DNA from: Lentisphaerota bacterium
GTDB lineage: Bacteria; Verrucomicrobiota; Kiritimatiellia; PWTM01
Length of the DNA: 64,000 bases
Direction of reading: 5' to 3'
Assembly: GCA_016873715.1 (NCBI GenBank)
Contig: VGWF01000001.1
Location: 394-64,393 of the forward strand
Each line of letters opens with the position of its first letter. Position 1 is the stretch's first letter. Under the pieces are notes generated by a model. That model was given only the letters and a program-made list of their open reading frames with translations. It was not told where the DNA came from and made no database searches. A program made the position numbers and the translations under genes. Below, in pieces: positions 1,322 through 50,565 of the stretch.

Positions 1322-2641
1322 TCAGGCCGTGCCGGGGATCGGGATGACGCCCTCCGCGGGGATCGTCACGGTGCCCTTCTCGAAGTCCTCGGGGGTCGGG
1401 CTGAGCTGGAGGTTGTAGAAGGGGCTCTCCTGGTTCTCGGCCAGGTCGACCCAGCGGACGATCTGCCCGGTGTAGGCGGAGAGACGCCCCATGATCGCGG
1501 TCAGCGTCGCCTCGGCGACGCCCCGCGTCTCGCTCAGCGGCCTGCCGTTGCGGAGGCTGGCGATCAGGTCGACGTGCTCCTGCACGTACGGGTTCACGCC
1601 GCCCTTCGGCTTCACGGCGGCCTTGCCGGCGGGGTTGAGCTTGCCGCCGGGCCACACGGAGCCGGTCGCGCCGACGAGATGCTCGCCGATGCGCTGGTAG
1701 CAGCCGTTGATCTGGCGGCACATGCTGTGGACCGTCACGTCGTCGCCGTAGTCATAGTCGACGCTGAAGAAATCGTAGCGGTTGCCGATCGGGCGGCGCG
1801 CCCGGCCGCCGAACCCGAGCGCGAACTGCGGCGGACGGCCGATGAACCAGTTCGCGACGTCGAGGTTGTGGACGTGCTGCTCGATGATGTGGTCGCCGCA
1901 GAGCTCGGTGAACTGGTACCAGTTGCGGACCATGAACTGCCCCGGGGTCTCGCCGTCGACCTTCTCGTACTCCAGCCGGGCGTTGCCGCCGCACCACCAG
2001 ACGCGGCCGGACAGGATCCTCCCGATCGCGCCGTCCTCGACCGCCTTTCGGTTCTCCAGGTAGACCGGGTCGTGCCGCCGCTGCGTTCCGGCGACGACGG
2101 AGAGCTTCTTCTCCTTCGCCAGCTCGCCCGCCGCGATCAGCCGCCGGCATCCGACGGGGTCCGCCGCGGCGGCCTTCTCGACGAACACGTGCTTCCCGGC
2201 CCGGACGCAGGCCTCGAGGTGGATCGGGTGGAACGCGACGGAGGAGGTGATGATGACGATGTCCATCGGAACCGCCGCCAGCATCTTGCGGTAGCCGTCG
2301 AAGCCGATGAAGGTCGTCTCCGGAGTGACCGTCACGCGCCGCTCGCCGGGCTTGAGGTTCTTCTCCGCCCACGCGGCCAGCGTCGCGCCGAACTTCGCGG
2401 AGCGGTCGGACAGCGCGTCCGCCGCCGCGACGATCTCGACCGCCGGATCCGCCTCCAGGCAGTTGATGGCGGCCCCGCCGCCGCGGTTCCCGCAGCCGAT
2501 CACCCCGACGCGGATGCGCTCGCTGCCCGCGGCGAGCATGCGGGGCGGCGCCGCGGCGGCGAGGGCCGGGATCGATGCGACGGCGGTGGCGGATCGCCGG
2601 AGGAAGTCGCGGCGGGTCGGGGCGGACGCGTTCGGGCTCAT
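1322..2641 (-). CDS. Gfo/Idh/MocA-family NAD(P)-dependent oxidoreductase with a Tat signal (RRDFLRR).
   Basis: 439 aa with the Rossmann motif 'VGVIGCGNRG' and a twin-arginine signal. Confidence 0.9.
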   Translation of the reverse strand: MSPNASAPTRRDFLRRSATAVASIPALAAAAPPRMLAAGSERIRVGVIGCGNRGGGAAINCLEADPAVEIVAAADALSDRSAKFGATLAAWAEKNLKPGERRVTVTPETTFIGFDGYRKMLAAVPMDIVIITSSVAFHPIHLEACVRAGKHVFVEKAAAADPVGCRRLIAAGELAKEKKLSVVAGTQRRHDPVYLENRKAVEDGAIGRILSGRVWWCGGNARLEYEKVDGETPGQFMVRNWYQFTELCGDHIIEQHVHNLDVANWFIGRPPQFALGFGGRARRPIGNRYDFFSVDYDYGDDVTVHSMCRQINGCYQRIGEHLVGATGSVWPGGKLNPAGKAAVKPKGGVNPYVQEHVDLIASLRNGRPLSETRGVAEATLTAIMGRLSAYTGQIVRWVDLAENQESPFYNLQLSPTPEDFEKGTVTIPAEGVIPIPGTA

Positions 2642-2702
2642 CGTTCTCTCCTTGCGCGGGCGGCCGTCGCGGTGCGCCGGGCCCCGCCGCGGTTCATCCC
2701 TA

Positions 2703-3653
2703 TCACGTCGCGGCGCGTCCCGCCACAGGTTCGGCGGGCATGCGGGCGTGCCGCGTGACGTAGGCGTTGTTGCGGGCGGTGTCGGCGACGCAGTCGGCGA
2801 GGTCGGGATGCTGGGTCTCGTAGACGAACCAGCCGTCGTAGCCGGTCTCCTCGAACGCGGCGAAAGCGGCGGGCCAGTCGATCGGGCCGGGCTCCTCGAT
2901 CAGCTTGTCCTCGTTCTTCACGTGCACCGCGCAGATCCGCCGGCCGAGCAGCTTCACGCCCGGCACCGTCTCGGCGCCGAAGCCGTAGAAGGCCATGTTG
3001 AAAGGGTCGTAGTAGACGCCCACCGACGGCCGGTCGGCGAGGTCCACGAGTTTCCGGTTGTCCGCGGGGCTCAGCGAGTTCTCCAGCCCGAGCATGACGC
3101 CCGCGTCCGCGGCGGCTGCGGCGACGGCCTGCAGGTTCGCCACCATCGGGCCGTAGGAGGCCTCGCGGGTCATGTCCGGTGCCGCGTCCTTGAAGAACGA
3201 GACCAGGATCACGCCGCAGCCGAGCATCTCCGCCGCGCGGATCGACAGGCGCAGGCTCTCGGGCGCCTTCGGGTCGGAAAGGGTGATGCCCTTGTCCCAC
3301 ACGCCGGAGAGCGACGGGACGCGGATGCCCCACCGGTCGCTCTCGCGCTTGTACGCGCGCACGACGTCCCCATCGCGCAGGTTCTTCGCGCCCGACGTCA
3401 CCTGCAGCTCGACGCCCGAGATGCCGGGCATGCCCGCGGCGGCGCGGAGGACGCCGAGATCGCCGACCATCCTCATGCTCGCCGCGCGGATGCCCAGCTT
3501 GAGCGGGCATCGCGCCCGAGGCGCCGGCGGGGCGTCCGCCGCGCGGGCGGCCCCGGGCATCGCGCCCGCCGCCAGCCCCATCACGCAGGACTTGAGGAAC
3601 CCCCGCCGCGCGACGTGGAATCCGTCAGGAGTGGTCATCGTCATCGCCTCCAT
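2703..3653 (-). CDS. Sugar phosphate isomerase/epimerase (xylose-isomerase-like TIM barrel) with a Tat signal (RRGFLK).
   Basis: 316-aa ORF that is a typical partner of Gfo/Idh/MocA genes; same-strand operon with 1322..2641. Confidence 0.8.
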   Translation of the reverse strand: MEAMTMTTPDGFHVARRGFLKSCVMGLAAGAMPGAARAADAPPAPRARCPLKLGIRAASMRMVGDLGVLRAAAGMPGISGVELQVTSGAKNLRDGDVVRAYKRESDRWGIRVPSLSGVWDKGITLSDPKAPESLRLSIRAAEMLGCGVILVSFFKDAAPDMTREASYGPMVANLQAVAAAAADAGVMLGLENSLSPADNRKLVDLADRPSVGVYYDPFNMAFYGFGAETVPGVKLLGRRICAVHVKNEDKLIEEPGPIDWPAAFAAFEETGYDGWFVYETQHPDLADCVADTARNNAYVTRHARMPAEPVAGRAAT

Positions 3654-3947: not shown

Positions 3948-4763
3948 ATGGCGGTCCGGACGAAGGCGGGCGGGGATGGTCGGTACGCGGTGCCTGCGGT
4001 GGACGGCATGCTGGACATCGTCGAGTTCCTCGCGGGGCAGCCGCGGCCGTGGGGGATCAACGAGCTGGCGCGGGAGCTGGGCATCACGACGAACATGGCC
4101 TTCCGCATCCTGCGGCGGCTGACGGAGCGGGGGTACGTCGAGGCGGCGGGCGAGGGGGGCTACCAGCTCGGCACCCGGTTCTTCTCGCTGGGGATGCGGC
4201 TCTACACGCGGTTCGAACTCCGGGCGCGAGCCCGGCCGCATCTCGAGCGGCTGGCGTCGTCGACCGGGGAGACGTGCCAGCTGCACGTCCTCAACGCCCG
4301 CGGCATGCTGGTGGTCGACGTGGTGAACCCGCGCGCCGACTTCTTCCTGCAGGTCGTGCCGGGCGCGCACCTCAACTGTCACGCCAATGCTTTCGGCAAG
4401 GCGGTGCTCGCGTTCCTGCCGTCCGCGGAGGCGCGGCGGTACCTGGCCGGGAAGCTCGAACGCATGACTGACCGGACGCTGATCTCCGCCGCGGCGGTGG
4501 TCCGCCAGTTCGACGCGATCCGCGCGACCGGCCTCGCCTACGACCGGGAGGAGTACGTGCGGGGCGTCCACTGCGTCGGCGCGCCGGTCTTCGACGCCTC
4601 CGGCGCGGTCGCTGCGGGCCTCGGGACCACGGGCCTGGCGATGGCCCGGGAGGGCGCGGGGGCGGAGACGTGCGAGCGGGCGGTGCTCGACTGCGCCGCC
4701 GCGGTCTCGAAGGACATCGGTTACGCTGGCGAGCGCTTCGAGGCGTGGAGGAAGCGGTCGTGA
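3948..4763 (+). CDS. IclR-family transcriptional regulator.
   Basis: An N-terminal wHTH ('INELARELGITTNMAFRILRRL') and a C-terminal IclR effector domain; ATG at 3948 follows an AT-rich segment. Confidence 0.85.
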   Translation: MAVRTKAGGDGRYAVPAVDGMLDIVEFLAGQPRPWGINELARELGITTNMAFRILRRLTERGYVEAAGEGGYQLGTRFFSLGMRLYTRFELRARARPHLERLASSTGETCQLHVLNARGMLVVDVVNPRADFFLQVVPGAHLNCHANAFGKAVLAFLPSAEARRYLAGKLERMTDRTLISAAAVVRQFDAIRATGLAYDREEYVRGVHCVGAPVFDASGAVAAGLGTTGLAMAREGAGAETCERAVLDCAAAVSKDIGYAGERFEAWRKRS

Positions 4764-7700
4764 ACTCCGCCATTCCCGCCTTCGCCGCGTGCGCAGCGGC
4801 CGTCCTTGCGGCAGCCGCGCCGCCGTCCCGTCCGCATCCGATCGTCGCGTGGCTGCCGCCGGAGTCGCTGCCGTCCGAGCCGGCGACGCGGGCGCTGACA
4901 CCCGACGAAGCTGCGGCGGCCTTGGAGCGCGACTGGCTGTTCCAGTGCGACGGGCGTCCTTCGCGGGGCGCCGTGGAGGCGGAGATCCGGCGCGCACGGC
5001 GCATCGCCACGGCCCTGGCCGACGGCCCCGCGCGGTCCGTTGCATCGTCCGCCCTGGAACGGCTGGCGGCGATCGAGGCCTCCCTGAAGGATCCGGCCGT
5101 CCCGCGGTGCGTACCCCCGCGGCCCGACGGCATCGCCGGACGGTGGTCGTTCGAGGGCACGGACGACGAGGTGTCGGCGTTCAGGCCCCTGGGATCCTGG
5201 GTCTTCGTCGACGGCGTGTTCGCAAACGGAGTGGCGCTCGGCGGCGGCGCCTACGCCGACGCCGGGGCGCAGGCCCATGGCGTCTTCGCAGGGTCCTACT
5301 CGGTGACCGCGTGGATCCGGACCTCGTCGGACGAGGCCGATGTGATCGGGACCGGGGTGGGGCGGGACCACGTCCTGCTGATGGCCTTCCGCGGCGTGGT
5401 GCGGGGCCATCACTGGACGGCCGGCGGTGCGAACGTGATCGACGGAAAGACCCCGTTGGCCGACGGCGCATGGCACCACATCGCGCAGGTCGTCGACGGC
5501 ACGACGATCCGGCTCTACGTCGACGGGAAGCCGGACGGCGAGCAGCCCTTCAAGGGCCGCGCCGCCGTGCCGCCCGCGCCGCTGCTGATCGGCGCGCGGT
5601 CCATGGATCCCGCGTCGCTCCGGTCGAGATTCCAGGGCGAGATGGACGAGATCCTGCTGCTCGGCCGGGCGCTGGGCGCCGACGAGATCGCCGGCCCCCA
5701 CGCCGCCGGGCGCGCCGCGCTGGAGGCATCGGCCGGGGCCTCGCGCGAGCCCTACCTGGCGGTGCGGCGCATCAAGCGCGACCTCATGGTCCGCGACCCC
5801 GCGGTCGACTTCAGCCGCGTCGTCTTCATCGACCAGCCGTATCCGCAGGGCGCGGAATGGGCGCACGAGGCGCGGCACCGCAACGGCACGATGGCCGTGC
5901 CCGGCGGGCGGCTGCTGACGCTCGAAGGCCTGCACCCGGGCGGCACGGTGCGCAAGCTCGCGCCGGCGGACGGCCCCGCCGCGTTCTGGCGGCCGGACGT
6001 GTCGTTCGACGGCCGCCGCGTGCTCTTCTGCATGAAGCCGGCGGCGGAGAAGGCCTTCCACCTGTACGAAATCGGCGCGGACGGAAAGGGGGTCCGCCGG
6101 ATCACGGACGGCGACTACGACGATCTCGACCCGATCTACCTTCCGGACGGGCGCCTCCTGTTCTCGACCTCGCGCGCGAACACCTACGTCCGCTGCATGC
6201 CCTACACGTACGCGTACGTGCTGGCGCGCTGCGACGCGGACGGCAGGAACCTCTACGTCGTCAGCCCCGGCAACGAGCCCGACTGGCTGCCGTCGCTGTT
6301 GAACGACGGACGCGTGATCTTCACGCGGTGGGAGTACACCGACAAGGCGCTGTGGCGGATCCAGAGCCTCTGGACGATGAACCCCGACGGATCCAGCCTC
6401 TCGGCCTTCTGGGGCAACCAGAGCGTCTGGCCCGACATGCTCGTCGAGCCGCGCGCGATCCCCGGGAGCCGCCGCGTGATGTTCAGCGGCTGCGGCCACC
6501 ACGACTGGTTCGGCGGTCCGATCGGCATCGTCGACCCCGCCCAGGGCTTCAACTTCCCCGACGGGCTGACGAAGGTCACGGCCGACGTGCCGTGGGCCGA
6601 GTGCGGGCCTCCGCCGGTCGACCCGGTCGAGAGCGCCGCCTACGAACCCGCCGGCCGGTTCGGCGCGTACAAGACGCCGTATCCGCTCTCCGACCGTCTC
6701 TTCCTCGTCTCGGCGCGCACCGGCGGGCTGAACACGCCGCGGGACAAGCAGCCGGGGAGCTTCAAGCTCTACCTGATGGACGTCGACGGCAACCGCGAGC
6801 TGATCCACGAGGGCGCGTTCAACATCCTCCACGCGATGCCGCTGCGCCCGAGGCCGGCCCCGCCGGTGATCGCCGACCGCGTCGAATGGCCCGGGACCGG
6901 GCCGGACCGCAAGCCCGCCGCGCCGGGCGTGCTCTTCTCGGGGGATGTCATCCAGGGACCGACGCGGATTCCGCGCGGCGAGGCGAAGTGGCTGCGCGTG
7001 GTCGCGATGGACGCGAAGACCTACTCGTCGTGGATCCGCGAGGAGATGCCGCACCAGCACTCGGGTCCGGCGGTTTCGCTGCTGCAGGCCGACGGCGTGA
7101 AGCGGATCGTCAGCGAGGTTCCGGTGGAGGCCGACGGTTCGGTGAACTTCGAGGCGCCCCCGGGCGTGGCGCTGCATTTCCAGCTTCTCGACGGCGGGCG
7201 TCGCGCGATCCAGACGATGCGCTCCTTCGTCGGCGTCATGCCCGGCGAGCGGCGCGGCTGCGTCGGCTGCCACGAGATGCACAGCGTCGCCCAGGTGAAC
7301 GCGCGCGGCGCGGCCCTGGAGCGCGCCCCGTCCGCGATGACGCCGCCGCCGTGGGGCGCGGACACGACGCTGGGCTACGAGCGGTCGATCCACCCGATCC
7401 TGGAGAGGCACTGCGGCGCCTGCCACCAGGGGGACGGCAAGGGGCGGAAGGCCTTCGACGTCACGCTGCGGCCGGGGCTCGGCATCTTCAAGGAGCCCTA
7501 CGTCACGCTCGTCGGCGGGTCGCTGTACCACGGTCCGAAGTCGCTCGAACCGCCCGCGACGATCGCTGGATGCCTGCCGGTCGAAACGTGGCCCACCGCC
7601 GGCGCGCCGGAGGGCGTGCGGACGTTTCCGCCGATGACGTGGATGTCGCGCACGAGCCGCCTCGTGAACCACTACGCCTCCGGGGCGCATCACGCCGAGG

Positions 7701-7930
7701 TGCGGATGCCGGAGGCCGAGCGCCGCGTGCTGGCCGCCTGGGTCGACCTCACCGCGCCCTACCGGGGCGACGAGGAGATCCGCGCGCTGCCCGATCCCGA
7801 CTTCCCCGGCATCGGGGACCTCCCCGTCCGCCCGCGCGTGCGCACCGCGCCGGTGATCGACCGCTTCAACCTGCCCCAGGACGGCGTGGCCAGGGCGATG
7901 TCCGCATCCGCCGGAAAGGCGACGCCATGA
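4760..7930 (+). CDS. Secreted multidomain protein, paralog 1. It has a signal peptide, a LamG/ConA-like domain, a PD40/TolB-like beta-propeller and two CxxCH motifs ('GCVGCHE', 'RHCGACHQGDGKGRKAFDVT', PSCyt1-like).
   Basis: ORF 4670..7930. The GTG at 4760 overlaps the IclR stop (GTGA), and a signal peptide follows it. Conserved blocks are shared with the genes at 7927 and 45528. Confidence 0.85.
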   Translation: MNSAIPAFAACAAAVLAAAAPPSRPHPIVAWLPPESLPSEPATRALTPDEAAAALERDWLFQCDGRPSRGAVEAEIRRARRIATALADGPARSVASSALERLAAIEASLKDPAVPRCVPPRPDGIAGRWSFEGTDDEVSAFRPLGSWVFVDGVFANGVALGGGAYADAGAQAHGVFAGSYSVTAWIRTSSDEADVIGTGVGRDHVLLMAFRGVVRGHHWTAGGANVIDGKTPLADGAWHHIAQVVDGTTIRLYVDGKPDGEQPFKGRAAVPPAPLLIGARSMDPASLRSRFQGEMDEILLLGRALGADEIAGPHAAGRAALEASAGASREPYLAVRRIKRDLMVRDPAVDFSRVVFIDQPYPQGAEWAHEARHRNGTMAVPGGRLLTLEGLHPGGTVRKLAPADGPAAFWRPDVSFDGRRVLFCMKPAAEKAFHLYEIGADGKGVRRITDGDYDDLDPIYLPDGRLLFSTSRANTYVRCMPYTYAYVLARCDADGRNLYVVSPGNEPDWLPSLLNDGRVIFTRWEYTDKALWRIQSLWTMNPDGSSLSAFWGNQSVWPDMLVEPRAIPGSRRVMFSGCGHHDWFGGPIGIVDPAQGFNFPDGLTKVTADVPWAECGPPPVDPVESAAYEPAGRFGAYKTPYPLSDRLFLVSARTGGLNTPRDKQPGSFKLYLMDVDGNRELIHEGAFNILHAMPLRPRPAPPVIADRVEWPGTGPDRKPAAPGVLFSGDVIQGPTRIPRGEAKWLRVVAMDAKTYSSWIREEMPHQHSGPAVSLLQADGVKRIVSEVPVEADGSVNFEAPPGVALHFQLLDGGRRAIQTMRSFVGVMPGERRGCVGCHEMHSVAQVNARGAALERAPSAMTPPPWGADTTLGYERSIHPILERHCGACHQGDGKGRKAFDVTLRPGLGIFKEPYVTLVGGSLYHGPKSLEPPATIAGCLPVETWPTAGAPEGVRTFPPMTWMSRTSRLVNHYASGAHHAEVRMPEAERRVLAAWVDLTAPYRGDEEIRALPDPDFPGIGDLPVRPRVRTAPVIDRFNLPQDGVARAMSASAGKATP

Positions 7931-10900
7931 GAATCGCCTCTTCCGGCCGACACGGAGGTCGGCCCTCCGGCCCGTCGGCATGCCGTTCGGTTTCGCGACT
8001 GGAGGGCCGGGCTCTGTCCCGGCCGTTCCGGTCCGGGGCGCTCGCCGCGTTTCTCAGCCTCGTCGCCGCGGTCGCACCCGCGGCGGAATCGGAAGCCACC
8101 GGTGTCGCGTCGCCGCTGCCCCCGCTGGCGGTTCACGTGAAGCGCGACACCCTCGCTGCGACCCTGCTCGCGAGCCGCGCCGCGCTGGCCGCATGGCGCG
8201 CGGAGCAGGCCGCCGTGCGGCCGGGGCTGGTGTGGGGCCCGTGGTCCGTCAGCGCGGCGGGCAAGCCCGACGCGCCCGCCCCCGCGGTCGATCCCGCGGC
8301 GAAGGACGCGGAGGGCGCGCCCCTCTGGCAGCCGCGGGCCGGATGGAAGGACGGCCAGTTCCTCCCGCTGGTTCCTGCCGGGCAGCCGAACGCGCCCGCG
8401 ACCGTGTGGCTGACGCGAACCGTCGTCGCCTCGCGACCCGCGACGGTGACCGTCGGCCTCGGCGGTGGCGACCGGATCGAGGTGCGGATCAACGGCACAG
8501 TCGCGCACACGCTCGACACCCGCGCCTGCTACGAGCGCTATGGCTGCAGTCTCGCGACGGACACGATCCACGCCGACCAGGTCATGGTGGGTTTGGCGCT
8601 CCCCGCGGGCACGAACCGGCTGACCCTCGGTGTGTCGCAGTCCGACATCGGGCGCCAGGCCCCGTTCCGTCTGTGGTTCTCCTCCGCGCCGAATCCCGTG
8701 CCGCACCTCTGGCAGCGCATCCGCCGCGACTTCCCGCCGTCGGGCCATGCGTTGCTGGAGGCCGTGCCGTACCCGTGGTTCGAAGCCGGGGGCTGGTTCG
8801 ACGCGGACGATTCGCGGCTCGAACGCGCGTTCGTCGCCGATGTCGCGGCCTCCAACGCGCCGCTCGCCGCGCTGCTCGGCCCGCCTCTCGCCGCCCTCGA
8901 GTCGGCGAAGGCCCCGGCCGGCGACCCCCGGTGGCTCGACCTTTGCGTCACCGCCGCGGAGCAGGCGCGGGCGGCGGACCGGCTCGGCCGGCTGGCGGCG
9001 GCGGTGGCGGAACTCGCGCGTTCGCACCCGGCGTATCCGGCGGATCGTCTGCTTGGCGAGATCGACGGGCTGCGCTCGGCGGTTCTTCGCGGCGAGCCGT
9101 CGCGCCCCGCGGTGGACGCCCTCGCGCGCCGCGCCCTGGTGGACGAGAGCCCGCTGCTGAAGGGGCGGAAGCTCCTCTTCTCCCGCCGGTACACGTACGA
9201 CTCGCGGCATTACTACGACGACTACTACGCGGGCCTTCGCGAATGGGGCGGGAACCTCTGCGAACTCGACCCCGCCACGGGCAAGGTCCGCGAGATCGTG
9301 CCGAAGCTCGCGGGCGGTATCTTCGACCGCTACGACCTCTCGCGGGACGGCCGGCGCGTCGTCTTCGGGTATCGCGCGCCGCGGCCCGAGGGCTTCCGCA
9401 TCTGGGAATGCCGCCTCGACGGCTCCGGCCTGCGGCAGCTCACGGCTCCGCCCGCCGACGAGCCGGAGCGCATCGCGCGGCACGCGGGCTACACGCGCGA
9501 GGCGATGGAGAAGGACCCGCGGCTCTACGGTCACTGGACCGACGACCTGCACCCGTGCTACCTGCCCGACGGCCGGATCGTCTTCGTCTCGAGCCGCTCC
9601 GAGCGCAGCGTCCTGTGCGGCGGGCACCCGCTGACCTGCACGACGCTCCACCGGATGGATGCCGACGGCCGCGACCTGCACGAGCTTTCGCAGGGCGCGC
9701 TGACCGAGTCGACGCCGACGCTGCTCGACGACGGCCGCATCCTCTACACGCGCTGGGAGTACGTCTACAAGGGCATTGCCGCCGTCCAGTCGCTCTGGGC
9801 GATGCGTCCCGACGGCACGGCCTCGGAGGAGATCTACGGCCACAACATCGACAACCCCGGCGTCTTCTTCGCCGGCCGCCAGATCCCCGGCGCGCCGGAC
9901 CGCGTCGTCGCCGTCGGCTGCGGCCACGAGCCGCTCGCCGTGGGTTCGATCCGCGTGATCGACCGCGCGAAGGACCGCCGCACGAAGGACGCGATGACGA
10001 GCCTCACGCCCGAGGTCGAGACGCGAAACCTCCGCGGGTTCTTCCAGTACCGCAACGGCCGGTGGAACGCGGAGGACGTGTACGGCCCGTTCTATACCGA
10101 CCCGTACCCGCTCTCGGAGCACTTCTTCCTCGTCTCGCACAACCCGTCCTCGCGGTACAACGACCGCGACGCCTACGGCATCTGGCTGATCGACACGTTC
10201 GGCAACCGCGTGCCCGTGTATGACGACCCGGAGATGTCCTGCTTCCAGCCGACGATCCTCGCCCCGCGCGCCGCGCCGCCCGCGCTGCCGCCGATGATCG
10301 CGGACGAGGCCGCGACCCACGGCGAGGCGACCGTGCTGCTGGTGGACCTCCACCGCGGCTTCACCAACGTCGCGCCGGGCACCGTGAAATACCTGCGCGT
10401 GATGGAGCAGATCCCGCGCTCGTGGGCGGCCTCGCAGGTGCAGCCGGGCGACGGCATCCCCGGCCAGACGACCGCCGTCTCGCTCAACACCCACATCTGG
10501 ATCGGCGTGCTGCTCGGCGTCGTCCCGGTCGAGGCGGACGGCTCGGCGTTCTTCCGCGTGCCGGCGCGGCGCAACCTCTACGTCACCGCGCTCGACGGCG
10601 ACTTCCTGGAAGTCCAGAAGATGCGGACCTTCGTCAACTTCCAGCCCGGCGAGACGCGCTCGTGCGTCGGCTGCCACGACCCGCGCGACGGCACCCCCGT
10701 CACGACGCGGCCGCTGGCGATGAACCGCGCGCCCTCGGCCATCGCCCCGCAGCCCGGCGACGCCGGTCCGCGTCCGATCCACTATCCGTCCGACGTCCAG
10801 CCGGTGTTCGACCGCCACTGCGTCGCCTGCCACGGCGGCGACAAGCCGAAGGGCGGCCTCGATCTGACCGGGGAGATGACGACGCACTTCAACCGCTCCT

Positions 10901-11832
10901 ACGAGACGCTCCTGAAGAAGGGCCTCGTGAACTTCATCCAGGAATGGACCGGGCCCGCGCCGGAGCAGGCCGGTCCGGGCCACGTGCCGAACGGAAGCAT
11001 GCTCTTCTCCGAGGCCGTCGCGCCGTACACGTTCGGTTCGCACCGCAGCCGCCTGATCGAGGTCCTGCGCAAGGGCCACCACGACGTGAAGCTCCCGCGC
11101 GAGGAGTTCATCCGCATCGCGACGTGGGTCGATGCCAACGTTCCGTACTACGGCTCCTACTTCGGCCGGAAGAACATCGCCGCGAAGGGGCGCCCGGGGT
11201 TCCGCCCGGCCCCGACGCTGGAGTCCGCGCGCGGGATCGAGCCGCCGCCCTACGTGCCGCCGGCCCTGCCGGCGAAACTTCTCGCGTCGTGGGGGGCGGA
11301 CGCGCTGCCCGCGGCGTTCGACGGCACGGCCGGGGTGGCCGGCGCCGCCCCCGGCGCGCACGAGGCGGTCTCGGTCGCGCTGTGGGTCCGGCCGGAGAGC
11401 CTCGGCAACCGGTGGAACCCGCTGCTCTTCACGGACGGTGGGGGCGCGTCGGCCTTCCATTTCAGCCTGCTCGAGGACGGCACGCCGAACGTCGCGGTCA
11501 ACTACGGCGGCAAGATGTGGATGCACAGCCGCGCCGAAACGGCGGTCGCGCCGGGCGCGTGGCGGCACGTCGCCGTCGCGTGCGATCCCCGCGCCGGCGG
11601 TTCGATCCGCTTCTTCGTCGACGGCCGCCCCGCCGGCCGCAAGCCGCTGGACCTCGGCGTGCCGGTCGACCTCGCCGCCTTCCGCCTCGGCGCCTGGAAC
11701 CAATGGGCGAAACAGCCCGCCAGCAACTTCCACGGCGTGATGGCCGGCGTGCGGCTGTACGCGGGCCTGCTGACCGACGACGAGGTCGCGGCGCTGGCCC
11801 GCACGGGACCGGATGCGGCGGTGCGACGGTAA
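7927..11832 (+). CDS. Secreted multidomain protein, paralog 2. It has an N-terminal beta-sandwich-like domain, a helical linker, a PD40 beta-propeller, two CxxCH motifs ('SCVGCHD', 'RHCVACHGGDKPKGGLDLT') and a C-terminal LamG/ConA-like domain.
   Basis: Second half of the 2347-aa fused ORF. ATG at 7927 overlaps the upstream stop (ATGA), indicating translational coupling. The motifs 'VPVEADGS', 'CVGCH', 'KPKGGLDLT' and 'W(V/I)DxN(V/A)xYYG' are shared with its paralogs. Confidence 0.85.
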   Translation: MRIASSGRHGGRPSGPSACRSVSRLEGRALSRPFRSGALAAFLSLVAAVAPAAESEATGVASPLPPLAVHVKRDTLAATLLASRAALAAWRAEQAAVRPGLVWGPWSVSAAGKPDAPAPAVDPAAKDAEGAPLWQPRAGWKDGQFLPLVPAGQPNAPATVWLTRTVVASRPATVTVGLGGGDRIEVRINGTVAHTLDTRACYERYGCSLATDTIHADQVMVGLALPAGTNRLTLGVSQSDIGRQAPFRLWFSSAPNPVPHLWQRIRRDFPPSGHALLEAVPYPWFEAGGWFDADDSRLERAFVADVAASNAPLAALLGPPLAALESAKAPAGDPRWLDLCVTAAEQARAADRLGRLAAAVAELARSHPAYPADRLLGEIDGLRSAVLRGEPSRPAVDALARRALVDESPLLKGRKLLFSRRYTYDSRHYYDDYYAGLREWGGNLCELDPATGKVREIVPKLAGGIFDRYDLSRDGRRVVFGYRAPRPEGFRIWECRLDGSGLRQLTAPPADEPERIARHAGYTREAMEKDPRLYGHWTDDLHPCYLPDGRIVFVSSRSERSVLCGGHPLTCTTLHRMDADGRDLHELSQGALTESTPTLLDDGRILYTRWEYVYKGIAAVQSLWAMRPDGTASEEIYGHNIDNPGVFFAGRQIPGAPDRVVAVGCGHEPLAVGSIRVIDRAKDRRTKDAMTSLTPEVETRNLRGFFQYRNGRWNAEDVYGPFYTDPYPLSEHFFLVSHNPSSRYNDRDAYGIWLIDTFGNRVPVYDDPEMSCFQPTILAPRAAPPALPPMIADEAATHGEATVLLVDLHRGFTNVAPGTVKYLRVMEQIPRSWAASQVQPGDGIPGQTTAVSLNTHIWIGVLLGVVPVEADGSAFFRVPARRNLYVTALDGDFLEVQKMRTFVNFQPGETRSCVGCHDPRDGTPVTTRPLAMNRAPSAIAPQPGDAGPRPIHYPSDVQPVFDRHCVACHGGDKPKGGLDLTGEMTTHFNRSYETLLKKGLVNFIQEWTGPAPEQAGPGHVPNGSMLFSEAVAPYTFGSHRSRLIEVLRKGHHDVKLPREEFIRIATWVDANVPYYGSYFGRKNIAAKGRPGFRPAPTLESARGIEPPPYVPPALPAKLLASWGADALPAAFDGTAGVAGAAPGAHEAVSVALWVRPESLGNRWNPLLFTDGGGASAFHFSLLEDGTPNVAVNYGGKMWMHSRAETAVAPGAWRHVAVACDPRAGGSIRFFVDGRPAGRKPLDLGVPVDLAAFRLGAWNQWAKQPASNFHGVMAGVRLYAGLLTDDEVAALARTGPDAAVRR

Positions 11833-32672: not shown

Positions 32673-32681
32673 TGAGCGGCG

Positions 32682-32706
32682 GGGAGGGTCGCGCCCCGCG
32701 CGACCG
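32682..32706. repeat. REP-like palindrome GGGAGGGTCGCGCCCCGCGCGACCG (copy 1), immediately after the sulfatase stop codon.
   Basis: 8-bp stem GGTCGCGC/GCGCGACC with a CCC loop; two further copies at 36962 and 37072. Confidence 0.7.
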
Positions 32707-32731
32707 CTCGATCGATGAGAGGAATCGACCA

Positions 32732-33997: not shown

Positions 33998-34076
33998 ACG
34001 ACGCCCGCGCCACGCCCGCGGCAGAATGGGGGAATCGGAAACAGCCTGTTCGTGTGACCCGGATGGAGCCGCGACC

Positions 34077-42914: not shown

Positions 42915-43099
42915 GCGTCGTTCATCCTTCCGCCATCGGCATGCGCGCATGGTAGGCTTCTGACGCTCCGCACTCAAACCCCCTTTTGGCGCCCGGGGTC
43001 CCCCGGGGCGCCGACAATAAAGCCCGCACCGGGCCGTTTGCTCCTATGGCCTCGGCGCCGGCCGGTCCGGGCCGCCGGAACCACGGGAGATCGAACAGC

Positions 43100-45118: not shown

Positions 45119-45527
45119 CGGGCGCCGCATGCCCGCGTGGGACCCGCTTGGACGCCCGCCGCGACCGTGTATGACCCAGGACGCGCCGCTCATCGGTCCC
45201 GGCCCGGATCACGGAGCTTGCAGATCGCATCCGAGTTCAGTCCCTTGCCGGAACGGCGACGTGCCGGTTCCGTCGGAAGACCCGGACGACACATCCTTCC
45301 TCGACCTGCCGCAGCAACTCGCTGAACCTCGTCTGGCCTCGAATGCACCAATCTCCAGGGTCTTCATGCCGTCATCATCCGACGAACCAACCAGCTTCAC
45401 AACCAGTTGTTTCGAACCGGCCGGTGCGGGGGTCGCGGGGGCGGTGTCCGGGCATTGACCTTGCGTTGGCCTTGTGTTTGACTGATCGCATGAGCGTTGA
45501 CCTGTCAAATGACCGGCGGAGGCGGGC

Positions 45528-48425
45528 ATGACGCGGGCCGTGCTTCTCTTTTTGCTGTCGGCGGTCGCGGCGCGGGCCGGGGAGCCGTACCGTCCGCTGG
45601 CCTGGCGCGGGGATGCCGAGTGGTACGGGTCGGCGTTCTGGACGGGGCCGGACTGGACGCGGGTCGGGAAGGACTGGCACCACCCGGGGAACGACACGCC
45701 GAGCGTCCGCAGGTTCGAATGCCCGCGCGACGGGCGCGTGGCCGTCACCGGTCGCGTGGCGAAGCTCCATCTCAGCGGCGACGGCATCCGCGCGACGATC
45801 CGGCACAACGGGCGCGATGCGTGGACCGCGGAGATCGGCGGGACCGACGGCACGGGCGTCGTCCACCGCGTCGAGTTCGACGTGAAGGCCGGCGACGCGA
45901 TCCGTTTCGTCGTCCACAAACGCGGCCACATCGGCTGCGATACGACCGGTTGGGATCCTGTGGTTGTGTATGCGGACGGCGCGGCGTTCCGCGCGTCGGA
46001 GGCGTTTGCGGCCGCGAAGCAGGGCGGGGGAGGGTGGTCCTACGAGCAGGAGGGCGAGGGGACCGCGCCGCCCGCGGTGCCGGCTGCGGCCGCTCCGGAG
46101 CGTCCGTCCGCGCCGCCGTCCCCGGCGCTGTCCGCCCTCCTGGCCGCGCGGGCCGGCGAACTCGCGCCGGAGACCGATTCCGCGCTGCTCGCCATGGCGA
46201 TGGAGGAATGGTGGCGGGAGGACGGGCTCGACGACACGCCCGCGACGTACCGGGCCGCGGCAAGCAACCACCTGGAGCGGGTGCGCGCGCTCGCCTCGTG
46301 CGCCGGCGCGCCGCCGGCGGACGCGGACCGCCTTGTCGGAGCCGGGCCGCAGTCGCTCGACGACTGGCGTCTCCACTACCTCCGCGTCCGCGCCCTGAAG
46401 CGCTCGCTGATGATGGGCCGTCCCGAGATGCGGTTCGGCGAACTACTCGTGTGCAAGCGCCGCATGCCGTCCTACGCACACCTCGTCGCCCAGTACTACG
46501 GCTGGCGGCAGCGGGCGGGCGGGGGCCTCTACGCCGTGGCGCGGCCGGGACAGTCACTCGCGCTGCGCGACCTCACGGGCGGGCGCCTGCCGCCGGGCAG
46601 CTGCCTCGAGCCGCGCGTGCATCCGGACGGACGCCGCGTCCTGTTCGCCTTCGTCGCGTGCGACCTGACCACGCCCGAGCCGACCTCGCTGCCGGTGAAC
46701 GAGGCCGGGCCGGATGAGCGCTACTTCCACCTGTACGAGATCGCCGCGGACGGCACGGGCCTGCGCCAGCTCACGCGCGGGCCCTACGACGACATGATGG
46801 CCGACTACCTGCCCGACGGCGGCCTCGTCTTCTGTTCGACGCGCCGGAAGGGCTACTCGCGCTGCTTCGGGCCGCAGTACAGTCCGCGGTGGGACACCTA
46901 CACGCTGCACCGCGCCGACGGCGACGGCGGCGGCATCCGCACGCTTTCATGGAACGACGTCAGCGAGTGGTTCCCCGCGGTGGGGCACGGCGGCGAGATC
47001 CTCTTCGCGCGGTGGGACTACATCGACCGCGACGCGGTGACGCACCAGAACCTGTGGTCGTGCCGGCCCGACGGCACCAACCCGATGGCGGTCTGGGGCA
47101 ACGGCCTTCCGAAGCCGCACTGCACGTTCCAGGCGCGTCCGGTGCCCGGCTCGCACAGGCTCGTCTTCACCGCGTCGGCGCACCACTCGATCACGGCGGG
47201 GCCCGTGTGCCTGCTCGACCCGACGGTCGGCCTCAACGCGCCCGAGGCGGTCGAGCGCGTGACGCCGCTGCCGTATCCGGAGGCCGAGGGCTGGGCGCTG
47301 CCCGAGTGGTACGAGTCGCCGTGGCCGCTCTCGGAGGACTGGTTCCTCGCCGCCTACAGCCCGAAGCGGCTGCGGTCCGAGGGGCAGCACAAGAGCGACC
47401 CGAACCCGGATGACGCGCTGCGGATCGTCCTGCTCGACCGCCGCGGCAACCGCGAACTCGTGTACCGCGACCGCGGGATCGGGACCACGACGCCGGTTCC
47501 GCTCGCCCCTCGTCGCCCGCCCCCCGTGGTCGCCAGCGTCCTGCCTGCCGATCCGCCGCCGCACGGCGAGCTGACGATCTACGACGTCTACCGCGGCCTC
47601 GACGGCGTGCCGCGCGGGTCGATCGCGGAGATCCGGATCGTGCAGCTCTTCCCCAAGACCACGCCGGTCGCCAACGTGCCGCGCATGGGCCTGGCGGGCG
47701 AGGAGAACGGCCGCGCGATCCTCGGCACCGTGCCGGTCGAGGCGGACGGCTCCGCGCGGTTCCTGCTGCCCGCGCGCACGAAGGTGCTGTTCCAGGCGGT
47801 CGACCGCGACGGCTTCGTGCGGCGCACGATGCGCTCGTCGACCTACGTCCAGCCCGGCGAGGTCACCTCGTGCGTCGGCTGCCACGAGTACGGGACCACG
47901 CTGCCCTCGGCCGCCGGCGGCGCGCCCATGGCGATGCGCCGCGCGCCCTCGACGATCGAGCCCGGACTGCTGGGCGGGCGTCCGTTCGGCTTCGTCGAGG
48001 TCGTGCAGCCCGTCCTCGACCGCCATTGCATCCGCTGCCACGCCGGGGAGAAGCCGAAGGGCGGGATCGATCTCACGCGGGCGCCGGACCGCGGGTTCAC
48101 GCGGTCCTACTGGGCGTTGTGCGGCGACGCGGCGGGGCGTCCGACGCGCCCCGAGGCCGACGCGGGCGACCTCGTGCCGCGCTACCGGCAGCGCAACCAG
48201 ATCCAGATCACGCCGCCGGACGACCTGCGCGCCGCGCGGCAGAGCCGGCTGATCCGCATGCTGGCGGCCGCGTCCGGCCACCAGGGGGTGAAGGTGCCGC
48301 CGGACGACCTCCGCCGCCTCGCCGCCTGGATCGACCTCAACGCGATCTTCTACGGCGTCTACGACGCGCCCTCGCAGGCCCGCCAGGTCGCCGGCGACCC
48401 CGTCCCGATGCCGGACATCCGCTGA
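45528..48425 (+). CDS. Secreted multidomain protein, paralog 3. It has an N-terminal beta-sandwich-like domain, a linker, a PD40 beta-propeller and two CxxCH motifs ('SCVGCHE', 'RHCIRCHAGEKPKGGIDLT').
   Basis: An RBS 'ggcggagg' precedes the ATG at 45528. Conserved blocks are shared with the genes at 4760 and 7927. Confidence 0.85.
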   Translation: MTRAVLLFLLSAVAARAGEPYRPLAWRGDAEWYGSAFWTGPDWTRVGKDWHHPGNDTPSVRRFECPRDGRVAVTGRVAKLHLSGDGIRATIRHNGRDAWTAEIGGTDGTGVVHRVEFDVKAGDAIRFVVHKRGHIGCDTTGWDPVVVYADGAAFRASEAFAAAKQGGGGWSYEQEGEGTAPPAVPAAAAPERPSAPPSPALSALLAARAGELAPETDSALLAMAMEEWWREDGLDDTPATYRAAASNHLERVRALASCAGAPPADADRLVGAGPQSLDDWRLHYLRVRALKRSLMMGRPEMRFGELLVCKRRMPSYAHLVAQYYGWRQRAGGGLYAVARPGQSLALRDLTGGRLPPGSCLEPRVHPDGRRVLFAFVACDLTTPEPTSLPVNEAGPDERYFHLYEIAADGTGLRQLTRGPYDDMMADYLPDGGLVFCSTRRKGYSRCFGPQYSPRWDTYTLHRADGDGGGIRTLSWNDVSEWFPAVGHGGEILFARWDYIDRDAVTHQNLWSCRPDGTNPMAVWGNGLPKPHCTFQARPVPGSHRLVFTASAHHSITAGPVCLLDPTVGLNAPEAVERVTPLPYPEAEGWALPEWYESPWPLSEDWFLAAYSPKRLRSEGQHKSDPNPDDALRIVLLDRRGNRELVYRDRGIGTTTPVPLAPRRPPPVVASVLPADPPPHGELTIYDVYRGLDGVPRGSIAEIRIVQLFPKTTPVANVPRMGLAGEENGRAILGTVPVEADGSARFLLPARTKVLFQAVDRDGFVRRTMRSSTYVQPGEVTSCVGCHEYGTTLPSAAGGAPMAMRRAPSTIEPGLLGGRPFGFVEVVQPVLDRHCIRCHAGEKPKGGIDLTRAPDRGFTRSYWALCGDAAGRPTRPEADAGDLVPRYRQRNQIQITPPDDLRAARQSRLIRMLAAASGHQGVKVPPDDLRRLAAWIDLNAIFYGVYDAPSQARQVAGDPVPMPDIR

Positions 48426-48548
48426 CCTTCCAACCCTTGGACGCCGCGGCCTGCCGACGGTCCAAGGGTTGGAACCCCGCGCGGTCCGGGCTTGCGCCGG
48501 CCGGCCATCCTGGGCCACGCTGCCGTTGTCGAGCGTGGAGGACCGGAC

Positions 48549-50114: not shown

Positions 50115-50565
50115 GGGGCGGGCAGGAGGGCCCGCGCCACGGCGACCGGGAGCCGCGCAGGGCAGACGCATCTTGTTCCTGTCGAAACCGGGCCGTGTGC
50201 GCGGGATCCTCAGGATCCCCCTTCCAGCGCCGGGAAAGGGAGATCTGAGCCGAACAATCCTTGAATCAAGGCGAAGGCGATGCCGCGGCGCGCACCAGGT
50301 GGCCCCGAGCCCGCGAGGGGCCCGGCCGGGAACGCGGCAGACCGCCCCGGATGCAAGACGACGAAGGGGGCGCTGGACTCGTGTCCGCGCCCCCTTCGGC
50401 AACGCCGCAGGCGGGGCGGGATCCCGCGCGATCCGGCCGGCCTGGTGCGCGTCGCACCCCCGCAACCGCGAGGGCTCCAGCGTCCACCAGCCACCCCGCG
50501 CCACGGCGACCGGGAGCCGCGCGGCCGGGCTTGCAGTGCCGAGACCACTCGGGCATGGTTTCGTC

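What the first reader, a model, noticed from the sequence alone, without database searches (positions are those of the whole stretch)
45528..48425. Third paralog of the propeller/CxxCH family, 33 kb away and downstream of an atypical intergenic region
It has the same conserved blocks as the tandem pair at 4760-11832: 'VPVEADGSARF', 'SCVGCHE', 'RHCIRCHAGEKPKGGIDLT' and 'WIDLNAIFYGVYD'. It lacks a LamG domain. Its N-terminal beta-sandwich-like domain resembles the N-terminus of paralog 2. Three copies in 64 kb indicate lineage-specific expansion of a functionally important family.
Basis: seen in the sequence. Interest (0 to 1): 0.65.

Follow-up and report, generated by a model that had tools for sequence, protein, structure and literature searches.

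The report
Third HzsA-related dihaem propeller protein gene
The gene is a real third copy of a large, uncharacterised family of secreted two-haem proteins related to the alpha subunit of hydrazine synthase, but the three copies are ancient paralogues that travel together in glycan-degradation loci across several related bacterial phyla (the PVC group), not a recent local expansion.

Summary
ORF 45528-48425 (+, 965 aa) is homologous to the tandem pair at 4760-7930 and 7927-11832 (BLASTP E 1e-87 and 2e-81, 31-35% identity). All four quoted motifs sit in the same alignment columns.

All three proteins carry Pfam PF18582 (HZS_alpha) and exactly two CxxCH haem-c motifs. The predicted structure of P3 (pLDDT 85) matches hydrazine synthase alpha (5c2v_A, Foldseek E 1.6e-25) over propeller, middle and C-terminal haem domains. 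It is not a hydrazine synthase. The Tyr ligand is missing, there is no beta/gamma partner gene, and it scores 17 bits against an 800-bit cut-off.

"Lineage-specific expansion" is not supported. Each copy has its own orthologues at 55-96% identity in Lentisphaerae, Verrucomicrobia, Kiritimatiellae and Planctomycetota. In close relatives the three types lie in one tandem array, headed by an IclR regulator in several of them.

In this window P3 was separated from the array. Synteny with an 87%-identical relative breaks at its 5' end, and the upstream spacer holds a frameshifted antitoxin remnant.

The function is unknown in the literature. My best inference is an exported, glycan-targeted dihaem redox module that works together with its paralogues.

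The parts
45528..48425 (+). P3: HzsA-related dihaem propeller protein, 965 aa, with a Sec-type signal peptide (residues 1-17, ARA|GE)
   Evidence: ORF; 100% identical to P0001; Pfam PF18582 at 74 bits against a cut-off of 26.6; structure model with pLDDT 85
45588..46052 (+). N-terminal jelly-roll beta-sandwich (residues 21-175), specific to the P3 clade and rich in invariant Trp and His
   Evidence: Model. Foldseek gives weak matches to sugar-binding jelly-rolls (EclA C-domain, CBM35, CBM6, C1q; E ~3e-4, TM ~0.45). 46 of 155 columns are invariant among 70 orthologues.
46122..46415 (+). Helical linker domain (residues 199-296)
   Evidence: Secondary structure; homologous to the equivalent region of P2 (hhalign E 1.3e-6)
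46443..47507 (+). TolB-like beta-propeller (residues ~306-660)
   Evidence: Foldseek: 5c2v_A first, then TolB chains at E ~1e-9; weak PD40 hit
47616..47888 (+). HZS_alpha middle domain (residues 697-787), ending in the first haem-c motif CVGCH (residues 782-786, nt 47871-47885)
   Evidence: Pfam E 1.4e-20; profile match to 5c2v_A residues 452-564; CxxCH is 100% conserved in 122 sequences from three clades
47925..48392 (+). C-terminal helical cytochrome-c-like domain (residues 800-955). It holds the second haem-c motif CIRCH (residues 834-838, nt 48027-48041) and the conserved His918.
   Evidence: The His838-to-His918 spacing (+80) resembles HZS-alpha His689-to-His772 (+83); this equivalence is inferred.
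45119..45527 (.). 409-bp spacer upstream of P3, 65% GC against 71% for the window; a synteny breakpoint
   Evidence: No Rfam hit and no sigma-70-like promoter. DNA similarity to relative L007 begins only at 45559.
45240..45367 (-). Frameshifted, truncated Phd/YefM-type antitoxin remnant (MKTLEIGAFEA / TRFSELLRQVEEGCVVRVFRRNRHVAV...)
   Evidence: Three-frame translation. The joined peptide hits TIGR01552 phd_fam at 21.0 bits, cut-off 20.8.
48428..48474 (+). Perfect ~17-bp stem-loop directly after the P3 stop codon, with no U-tract
   Evidence: Fold of 48420-48500: -41.9 kcal/mol, z -2.2; the arms are unique in the window
4760..7930 (+). P1: HzsA-related paralogue with an N-terminal LamG domain. 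Its start overlaps the IclR stop by 4 bp.
7927..11832 (+). P2: HzsA-related paralogue with a C-terminal LamG domain. Its start overlaps the P1 stop by 4 bp (ATGA). An alternative start lies at 8137.
3948..4763 (+). IclR-family regulator heading the P1-P2 operon. Orthologous IclR genes head HzsA-related arrays in other genomes.
   Evidence: Pfam; relatives L001, L003, L009, L010, L011, L015; 7 of 108 immediate neighbours of P3-type genes
1322..3653 (-). GFO/IDH/MocA oxidoreductase and xylose-isomerase-like TIM barrel, both with Tat signals, transcribed divergently from IclR
   Evidence: The same gene pair lies just downstream of the P3-type gene in L002.

Best explanation
P3 is an exported member of the 'HzsA-related' protein family (Pfam PF18582).

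Architecture: a signal peptide, a clade-specific jelly-roll domain that probably binds a glycan, a helical linker, and a TolB-like beta-propeller. These are followed by a beta-sandwich middle domain carrying one covalently bound c-type haem, and a small cytochrome-c-like domain carrying a second, probably bis-His, haem.

It shares the full three-domain body plan of hydrazine synthase alpha but lacks that enzyme's special active-site ligands and its beta/gamma partners. It does not make hydrazine.

P3 is one of three anciently diverged, non-redundant paralogue types. Across Lentisphaerae, Verrucomicrobia, Kiritimatiellae and Planctomycetota these types are usually encoded together in tightly packed operons inside carbohydrate-utilisation loci, often under an IclR regulator.

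Inferred mechanism: the carbohydrate-binding appendages (jelly-roll here, LamG or F5/8-C in the paralogues) dock the protein on a polymer or glycan-derived substrate. The haem next to the propeller performs or receives a redox step. The C-terminal haem relays electrons to or from periplasmic partners, which could be the paralogues themselves or Tat-exported oxidoreductases such as GFO/IDH/MocA.

Identity, architecture and evolutionary history are shown. Haem loading, glycan binding and the redox role are inferred.
For: Homology and motifs.

Fold:
- Full-length match to 5c2v_A (E 1.6e-25, 827 columns, TM 0.6).
- The clade profile matches the HZS-alpha sequence at E 5e-12 in four collinear segments.

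Haem sites:
- Both CxxCH motifs are 100% conserved in 122 sequences from three clades, as are Met768-Arg769, Cys446 and Tyr861; His918 is 99% and His552 98% conserved.
- These are the only CxxCH-bearing proteins in the window.

Export: signal peptide.

Glycan targeting:
- LamG in P1 and P2 and F5/8-C in a relative.
- The P3 N-domain folds as a jelly-roll with weak matches to lectins and CBMs, and it is as conserved as the catalytic-looking core.

Co-functioning paralogues:
- Three deep clades.
- 26 of 46 loci of at least 15 kb have at least one more family member within 10 kb.
- Tandem same-strand arrays with 4-bp overlaps.
- 20 of the immediate-neighbour slots are family members.

Redox and glycan neighbours: IclR, GntR, GFO/IDH/MocA, PQQ-propeller proteins, a molybdopterin oxidoreductase that overlaps the gene start by 4 bp, and GH38, GH10, GH95 and GH5.

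Literature: HZS-alpha homologues are described, but none has an experimentally confirmed function (PMC12758564).
Against: - No experiment shows haem binding, glycan binding or any activity for any family member.
The His918 assignment rests on spacing only.
- Neighbouring genes are heterogeneous. Apart from paralogues and regulators, no single partner family recurs. GFO/IDH/MocA genes are very common in these genomes, so their proximity may be chance.
- The N-domain fold matches are weak (E ~3e-4, TM <0.5) and also include non-lectin C1q/TNF jelly-rolls.
- Many hosts are fermentative anaerobes, for which a role for periplasmic c-type cytochromes is not obvious.
Confidence: 0.5

Rival explanations
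1. P3 is itself a catalytic haem enzyme. The middle-domain haem has an open or labile sixth position facing the propeller. It directly oxidises, reduces or cleaves a glycan-derived substrate (peroxidase-, oxygenase- or lyase-like chemistry), rather than acting mainly as an electron carrier.
For: The homologous haem alpha-I of hydrazine synthase is a catalytic, five-coordinate site at the propeller/middle-domain interface (PMC12758564). The propeller and middle domains are the most conserved parts of P3. Invariant residues cluster in the propeller: Arg495-Trp496-Tyr498, His552 and Cys446.
Against: A family-invariant Met768 lies 14 residues before the first CxxCH. It could be a sixth ligand, which would make this an electron-transfer haem. 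Many hosts are strict anaerobes, which argues against O2- or H2O2-dependent chemistry. No known catalytic haem-enzyme fold appears among the matches apart from HZS-alpha.
Confidence: 0.2
2. P3 is a non-redox glycan-binding or scaffold protein of the cell envelope. The propeller is a TolB-like interaction platform and the CxxCH sites are structural (haem or metal) with no electron-transfer function.
For: After HZS-alpha, the best structural matches are TolB and peptidase propellers, which are interaction or gating domains. Carbohydrate-binding-type appendages are present.
Against: Two CxxCH motifs are absolutely conserved, and a conserved distal His sits at HZS-like spacing, across clades only 30-38% identical. 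The cytochrome-c-like C-terminal domain is retained in all three clades sampled.
Confidence: 0.12
3. P3 is a cryptic nitrogen-cycle enzyme that carries out hydrazine-synthase-like conversion of NO, hydroxylamine or ammonium.
For: Pfam HZS_alpha hit and a full-length fold match to 5c2v_A.
Against: - 17 bits against the 800-bit equivalog cut-off of NF052339.
- The Tyr591-equivalent is absent: CHEYGT in P3 and CHEHRM in the clade consensus, against CHYGSY in HZS.
- There is no beta/gamma (cytochrome-c-peroxidase-like) gene and no other CxxCH protein in 64 kb.
- The context is sulfatases, BNR proteins and glycoside hydrolases.
- PMC12758564 reaches the same conclusion for other distant homologues.
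Confidence: 0.03
4. One reading: three copies in 64 kb reflect a recent, lineage-specific expansion of the family in this organism.
For: Three family members lie in one 64-kb window.
Against: Identity between the copies is 30-38%. Identity to orthologues in other phyla is 55-96%. There are three deep clades. The same three types are adjacent in relatives.
Confidence: 0.03

Closest known systems
Hydrazine synthase alpha subunit (HzsA, Kuenenia stuttgartiensis kuste2861; PDB 5C2V chain A)
   Same: Order of domains: beta-propeller, beta-sandwich middle domain ending in CxxCH, then a C-terminal helical domain with a second CxxCH. Foldseek E 1.6e-25 over 827 columns and profile E 5e-12. The shared 'VE.DGS' middle-domain motif and a similar spacing to a distal His in the last domain.
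   Different: - About 16% identity.
- No Tyr at CxxCH+4 (the axial ligand of haem alpha-I), so canonical His ligation is expected.
- No hzsB/hzsC-like neighbours.
- Extra N-terminal jelly-roll and helical domains.
- Encoded in glycan-degradation loci of non-anammox PVC bacteria.
- Far below the NCBIfam equivalog cut-off.
'HZS_alpha domain-containing' / 'HzsA-related' proteins of Planctomycetota and Desulfobacterota discussed in PMC12758564 (clades I-IV)
   Same: Distant HZS-alpha homologues with a canonical haem pocket, missing the Tyr591 and Cys303 equivalents, and of unknown function.
   Different: Those were selected because they are co-located with fused beta-gamma homologues, and some lack the second haem site or the distal His. 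The window proteins have no beta-gamma partner, keep both CxxCH motifs and a conserved distal-His candidate, carry carbohydrate-binding-type domains, and occur in paralogue arrays.
Planctomycete cytochrome C domain proteins (PSCyt1, PF07635)
   Same: The second haem motif with a downstream 'KGG(I/L)DL' resembles the PSCyt1 signature. P2 scores 20.1 bits against a cut-off of 22. This is another PVC-typical exported family of unknown function.
   Different: P3 gives no PSCyt1 hit at E<=0.1. The architecture lacks the PSCyt2 and PSD1 domains, and there is no DUF1501 partner in the window.
TolB (Tol-Pal system propeller)
   Same: Propeller fold of the PD40 type; Foldseek E ~1e-9.
   Different: No TolB N-terminal domain, no Tol-Pal gene context, and 20 bits against a 343-bit cut-off for P1. 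Haem domains are added.

Membership tests
Hydrazine synthase alpha subunit (NF052339 equivalog) | Score above the curated equivalog cut-off (800 bits) | tested here: not met
   17 bits for P3, 25.5 for P1 and 39.8 for P2
Hydrazine synthase alpha subunit (NF052339 equivalog) | Three-domain body: propeller + haem-binding middle domain + C-terminal haem domain | tested here: met
   Foldseek 5c2v_A, E 1.6e-25, 827 aligned columns, TM(target) 0.59-0.60; four collinear profile segments
Hydrazine synthase alpha subunit (NF052339 equivalog) | Haem alpha-I ligated by Tyr591 (CxxCH+4), with the motif His diverted to a Zn site | tested here: not met
   HZS has CSGCHYGSY. P3 has CVGCHEYGTT, the clade consensus is CHEHRM, and P1 and P2 have CHEMHS and CHDPRD. 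The Zn-site Cys could not be mapped without coordinates.
Hydrazine synthase alpha subunit (NF052339 equivalog) | Bis-His haem alpha-II (CxxCH plus distal His772) | tested here: inconclusive
   The second CxxCH is invariant. His918 is 99% conserved and lies +80 from the motif His, against +83 in HZS. The equivalence is inferred from spacing only.
Hydrazine synthase alpha subunit (NF052339 equivalog) | Encoded with hzsB/hzsC (beta-propeller and dihaem gamma subunits) | tested here: not met
   No cytochrome-c-peroxidase-like gene or other CxxCH protein in the 64-kb window
Pfam PF18582 HZS_alpha-domain ('HzsA-related') proteins | PF18582 above its gathering score | tested here: met
   74 bits against 26.6, covering 98 of 98 profile positions. 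Orthologues carry the same precomputed domain, and some are named 'HzsA-related protein' by NCBI.
Pfam PF18582 HZS_alpha-domain ('HzsA-related') proteins | Two CxxCH motifs about 52 residues apart, downstream of a PD40/TolB-like propeller | tested here: met
   Spacing of 51-52 residues in all three paralogues; 100% conserved; propeller seen
Pfam PF18582 HZS_alpha-domain ('HzsA-related') proteins | Covalently bound c-type haem actually present | not testable with these tools
   Needs haem staining, mass spectrometry or spectroscopy of the expressed protein
LamG / Laminin_G_3 domain proteins | PF13385 or PF02210 hit | tested here: not met
   No hit for P3 at E<=0.1. P1 scores 76.5 bits and P2 72.6 bits.
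PSCyt1 Planctomycete cytochrome C (PF07635) | PF07635 above its gathering score (22 bits) | tested here: not met
   No hit for P3; P2 scores 20.1 bits

The most novel reading that the evidence does not exclude
The co-inherited P1/P2/P3-type paralogues assemble into a hetero-oligomeric, glycan-docked periplasmic dihaem redox enzyme. This would be a previously unrecognised class of non-hydrolytic carbohydrate-processing machinery in PVC bacteria. It would also be the ancestral protein stock from which the anammox hydrazine synthase alpha subunit was recruited.
Probability: 0.15. Interest if true: 0.8.

Novelty: new member of a known kind. Interest (0 to 1): 0.42.

Why it matters
The family is very large: 2,206 clusters at 50% identity with E<=1e-30, and P3-type genes in 365 species-level genomes. 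It is confined mostly to PVC bacteria that dominate the degradation of complex glycans, and it has no assigned function.

If these proteins add a redox step to polysaccharide breakdown, current CAZyme- and sulfatase-centred models of glycan turnover miss a component. The family also bears on the origin of hydrazine synthase. A 2025 study found only 'few' alpha-subunit homologues, whereas here the alpha-like body plan is abundant in carbohydrate loci.

The finding as first stated, a third paralogue taken as a sign of local expansion, is ordinary and its evolutionary reading is wrong.

Tried and rejected
- **Composition artefact:** rejected by composition-adjusted BLASTP.
- **RNA element or promoter in the 409-bp spacer:** no Rfam match at E<=1 and no sigma-70-like site. 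The one 'terminator-like' site there overlaps the start codon.
- **Homology of the N-terminal beta-sandwich with P2:** hhalign on the beta part alone gives E 0.11, so this was rejected. Only the helical linker aligns.
- **Specific NCBIfam model:** none found, only a sub-threshold hydrazine_alpha hit.
- **Sulfatase-maturation link:** the nearby radical SAM gene (41334-42977) is a B12-binding/DUF4070 type. No anSME family appears among its NCBIfam hits.
- **Suspected truncated sulfatase at 20147:** this was my own gene-calling error. An intact ORF with a signal peptide starts at about 19595.
- **Family-wide association with sulfatases:** rejected, 3 of 108 neighbours.
- **Literature:** searches for HzsA-related or HZS-like proteins in glycan contexts found nothing functional.
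- **Haem-ligand geometry:** model coordinates are not exposed, so it could not be measured.
- **Caveats on the censuses:** the neighbour census used my own rough ORF calling on loci of varied GC content, so its counts are approximate. The tblastn census at E<=1e-10 under-detects divergent neighbours.
Full report
**The observation**

The window is 71% GC. ORF 45528-48425 (+) encodes 965 aa. It starts at an ATG six bases after GGAGG and begins with a Sec-type signal peptide (MTRAVLLFLLSAVAARA|GE). It is identical to a deposited hypothetical protein of a Lentisphaerae MAG (P0001).

A three-way alignment with P1 (4760-7930) and P2 (7927-11832) gives 33-35% identity. VPVEADGS, CVGCH, RHCxxCH and W[IV]D fall in identical columns. 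Composition-adjusted BLASTP gives E 1e-87 and 2e-81 over about 760-780 columns. The similarity is therefore homology and not a GC effect.

**What the protein is**

- All three proteins hit Pfam PF18582, 'hydrazine synthase alpha subunit middle domain', at E ~1e-20.
- P1 has an N-terminal LamG domain, P2 a C-terminal one, and P3 none.
- Each has exactly two CxxCH motifs 51-52 residues apart. No other protein in the window has any.

An AlphaFold model built on 70 orthologues (pLDDT 85, pTM 0.77) shows these domains:

| Residues | Domain |
|---|---|
| 21-175 | beta-sandwich |
| 199-296 | helical linker |
| ~306-660 | beta-propeller |
| 679-782 | beta-sandwich ending in the first CxxCH |
| 800-955 | helical domain with the second CxxCH |

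Foldseek against the PDB puts hydrazine synthase alpha (5c2v_A/D) first, with E 1.6e-25, 827 columns and TM(target) 0.6. TolB propellers follow at E ~1e-9. A profile of the P3 clade also finds the HZS-alpha sequence at E 5e-12, in four collinear segments.

**It is not a hydrazine synthase**

- HZS-alpha has CSGCHYGSY, where the last Tyr (Tyr591) ligates haem alpha-I (PMC12758564).
- P3 has CVGCHEYGTT, its clade consensus is CHEHRM, and P1 and P2 differ again.
- The NCBIfam equivalog scores 17 bits against a cut-off of 800.
- No beta/gamma-like gene is present.

The second haem site looks HZS-like. His918 is 99% conserved across three clades and lies +80 from the motif His, against +83 for the distal His772 of HZS. 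This equivalence is inferred from spacing only.

Other family-invariant residues are Met768-Arg769, Cys446, Arg495-Trp496-Tyr498, Tyr861 and, nearly invariant, His552.

**The N-terminal domain**

- Modelled alone (pLDDT 76), it is a jelly-roll.
- It has weak matches to sugar-binding domains (EclA C-domain, CBM35, CBM6) and to C1q (E ~3e-4, TM ~0.45).
- It is as conserved among orthologues as the propeller and middle domains, while the helical linker is not.
The beta parts alone give E 0.11.

**Evolution**

Each paralogue has its own orthologues:

| Paralogue | Identity to its own orthologues |
|---|---|
| P3 | 54-76% among the top 120 hits, in Lentisphaerae, Verrucomicrobia, Kiritimatiellae and Planctomycetota |
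| P1 | up to 87% |
| P2 | up to 93% |

On a 591-column core alignment of 122 sequences, within-clade identity to the window copy is 60-96% for most members. Between-clade identity is 29-38%, and neighbour-joining gives three deep clades. 'Lineage-specific expansion' is therefore rejected.

The family is large. A profile search of 1.84 billion representatives finds 2,206 clusters at E<=1e-30 and 5,437 at E<=1e-10. P3-type genes occur in 365 species-level genomes, including the cultured Aquisphaera insulae JC669.

**Genomic context**

The window is a glycan-degradation locus. It contains:

- about ten sulfatase genes
- three BNR/sialidase-like genes
- a GH32+LamG protein and a beta-helix/CBM protein
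- an IclR regulator whose stop overlaps the P1 start by 4 bp, while the P1 stop overlaps the P2 start by 4 bp
- a divergently transcribed pair of Tat-exported genes, GFO/IDH/MocA and a xylose-isomerase-like TIM barrel

In relatives the P3-type gene is usually inside the array:

- L002, a 74% orthologue, has four HZS_alpha genes in tandem (F5/8-C type, LamG-N type, LamG-C type, P3 type), followed by DJ-1, GFO/IDH/MocA, the TIM barrel and a beta-helix protein.
- L003 (Kiritimatiellae) has IclR-P3type-HzsA with 4-bp overlaps.
- L001 (Verrucomicrobia) has sulfatase-IclR-BNR-GH-BNR-P3type-P2type-LamG-GH5-sulfatase-sulfatase-GH32.
- Of 46 loci of at least 15 kb, 26 have at least one more family member within 10 kb. 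The closest relatives show P1-type (56%) and P2-type (73-75%) genes next to P3-type.

A Pfam census of 108 non-family immediate neighbours was taken across about 66 loci. A further 18 neighbour ORFs had already been recognised as family members. The commonest families were:

| Neighbour family | Count |
|---|---|
| IclR | 7 |
| GntR/FCD | 4 |
| GFO/IDH/MocA | 4 |
| PQQ-propeller | 4 |
| GDSL | 4 |
| Sulfatase | 3 |
| Glycyl-radical enzymes | 3 |
| F5/8-C | 3 |
| HZS_alpha (additional) | 2 |

Paralogues and regulators are thus the only strong recurrent neighbours, and the sulfatase link is local. In L087 a molybdopterin oxidoreductase gene overlaps the P3-type start by 4 bp. In A. insulae the neighbours include GH38 and GFO/IDH/MocA.

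**The 'atypical intergenic region'**

- The 409-bp spacer (45119-45527, 65% GC) has no Rfam match and no sigma-70-like promoter.
- On the minus strand it contains a frameshifted, truncated Phd/YefM antitoxin remnant (45240-45367). The joined peptide hits TIGR01552 at 21.0 bits against a cut-off of 20.8.
- Against L007, a relative with 87% nucleotide identity, similarity begins at 45559 and runs to 55827. Upstream there is none, and L007 has a GFO/IDH/MocA gene there instead.
- The spacer is therefore a rearrangement junction. P3 was detached from the array in this lineage.

**Mechanism**

Shown:

- export signal
- two absolutely conserved haem-c attachment motifs
- HZS-alpha-like body plan
- carbohydrate-binding-type appendages in the family
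- co-inheritance and tight operonic packing of the paralogue types
- location in carbohydrate loci, often under IclR

Inferred: a glycan-docked dihaem redox module. In this reading one haem sits next to the propeller and performs or receives a redox step, and a bis-His haem relays electrons. The protein works with its paralogues or with periplasmic oxidoreductases.

The rivals are a directly catalytic haem enzyme, a non-redox scaffold and a cryptic nitrogen-cycle enzyme. They are weighed in the rival-explanations section of this report. The nitrogen-cycle reading is essentially excluded.

The open literature contains no functional data for such proteins.

**Verdict**

This is a real, well-defined gene: a new member of a recognised but uncharacterised family. 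The interest is moderate. It rests on the family's size, its consistent placement in PVC glycan loci as paralogue arrays, and its relation to hydrazine synthase.

Noticed in passing
window 45240-45367 (-): Frameshifted, truncated Phd/YefM-type antitoxin remnant in the spacer upstream of P3. No toxin partner is evident. It marks a rearrangement junction.
   Followed up: partly
window 45559 onward vs L007:10005-19937: 87%/85% nucleotide identity to a 'Verrucomicrobiota' MAG contig runs from codon ~11 of P3 to 55827 (two BLAST segments, with an unaligned gap at 50158-50498) and stops abruptly upstream. There L007 has a GFO/IDH/MocA gene where the window has a sulfatase.
   Followed up: partly
window 48428-48474 (+): Perfect ~17-bp GC-rich hairpin immediately after the P3 stop codon, without a U-tract (-41.9 kcal/mol for 48420-48500). 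It could be a terminator, attenuator or mRNA-stabilising element before the next sulfatase gene.
   Followed up: partly
window 4760-4763 and 7927-7930: 4-bp overlaps IclR/P1 (GTGA) and P1/P2 (ATGA) suggest translational coupling. The same 4-bp overlaps occur in the Kiritimatiellae locus L003 (IclR/P3-type/HzsA).
   Followed up: partly
window 1322-3653 (-): A GFO/IDH/MocA oxidoreductase and a xylose-isomerase-like TIM barrel, both with Tat signals, are transcribed divergently from IclR. The same pair follows the P3-type gene in L002. The pair resembles those used in oxidative (3-keto) glycoside cleavage; this resemblance is from memory and was not tested.
   Followed up: no
window 41334-42977 (-): B12-binding radical SAM/DUF4070 gene embedded among the sulfatases. 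No anaerobic sulfatase-maturase (anSME) family appears among its NCBIfam hits. It is conserved at the same place in contigs L004-L006.
   Followed up: partly
window 34026-36917 (+): A 963-aa protein with two sulfatase domains (a fused double sulfatase).
   Followed up: no
window 13465-14772, 18458-19555, 32645-33997, 61958-62857: Four sizeable ORFs with coding-type codon bias but no Pfam hit. The first three also have no NCBIfam hit. The 13465-type protein recurs near P3-type genes in 3 of 46 loci.
   Followed up: no
L087:8718-10004: In an ENA metagenome contig, a sulfite-oxidase-family molybdopterin oxidoreductase gene overlaps the start of the P3-type gene by 4 bp. This hints at a redox partnership.
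   Followed up: no
L066 (CAZIJC010000146.1): A 57%-identical P3-type gene sits on a contig binned as Anaerolineales, outside the PVC group. This is either horizontal transfer or a binning error.
   Followed up: no
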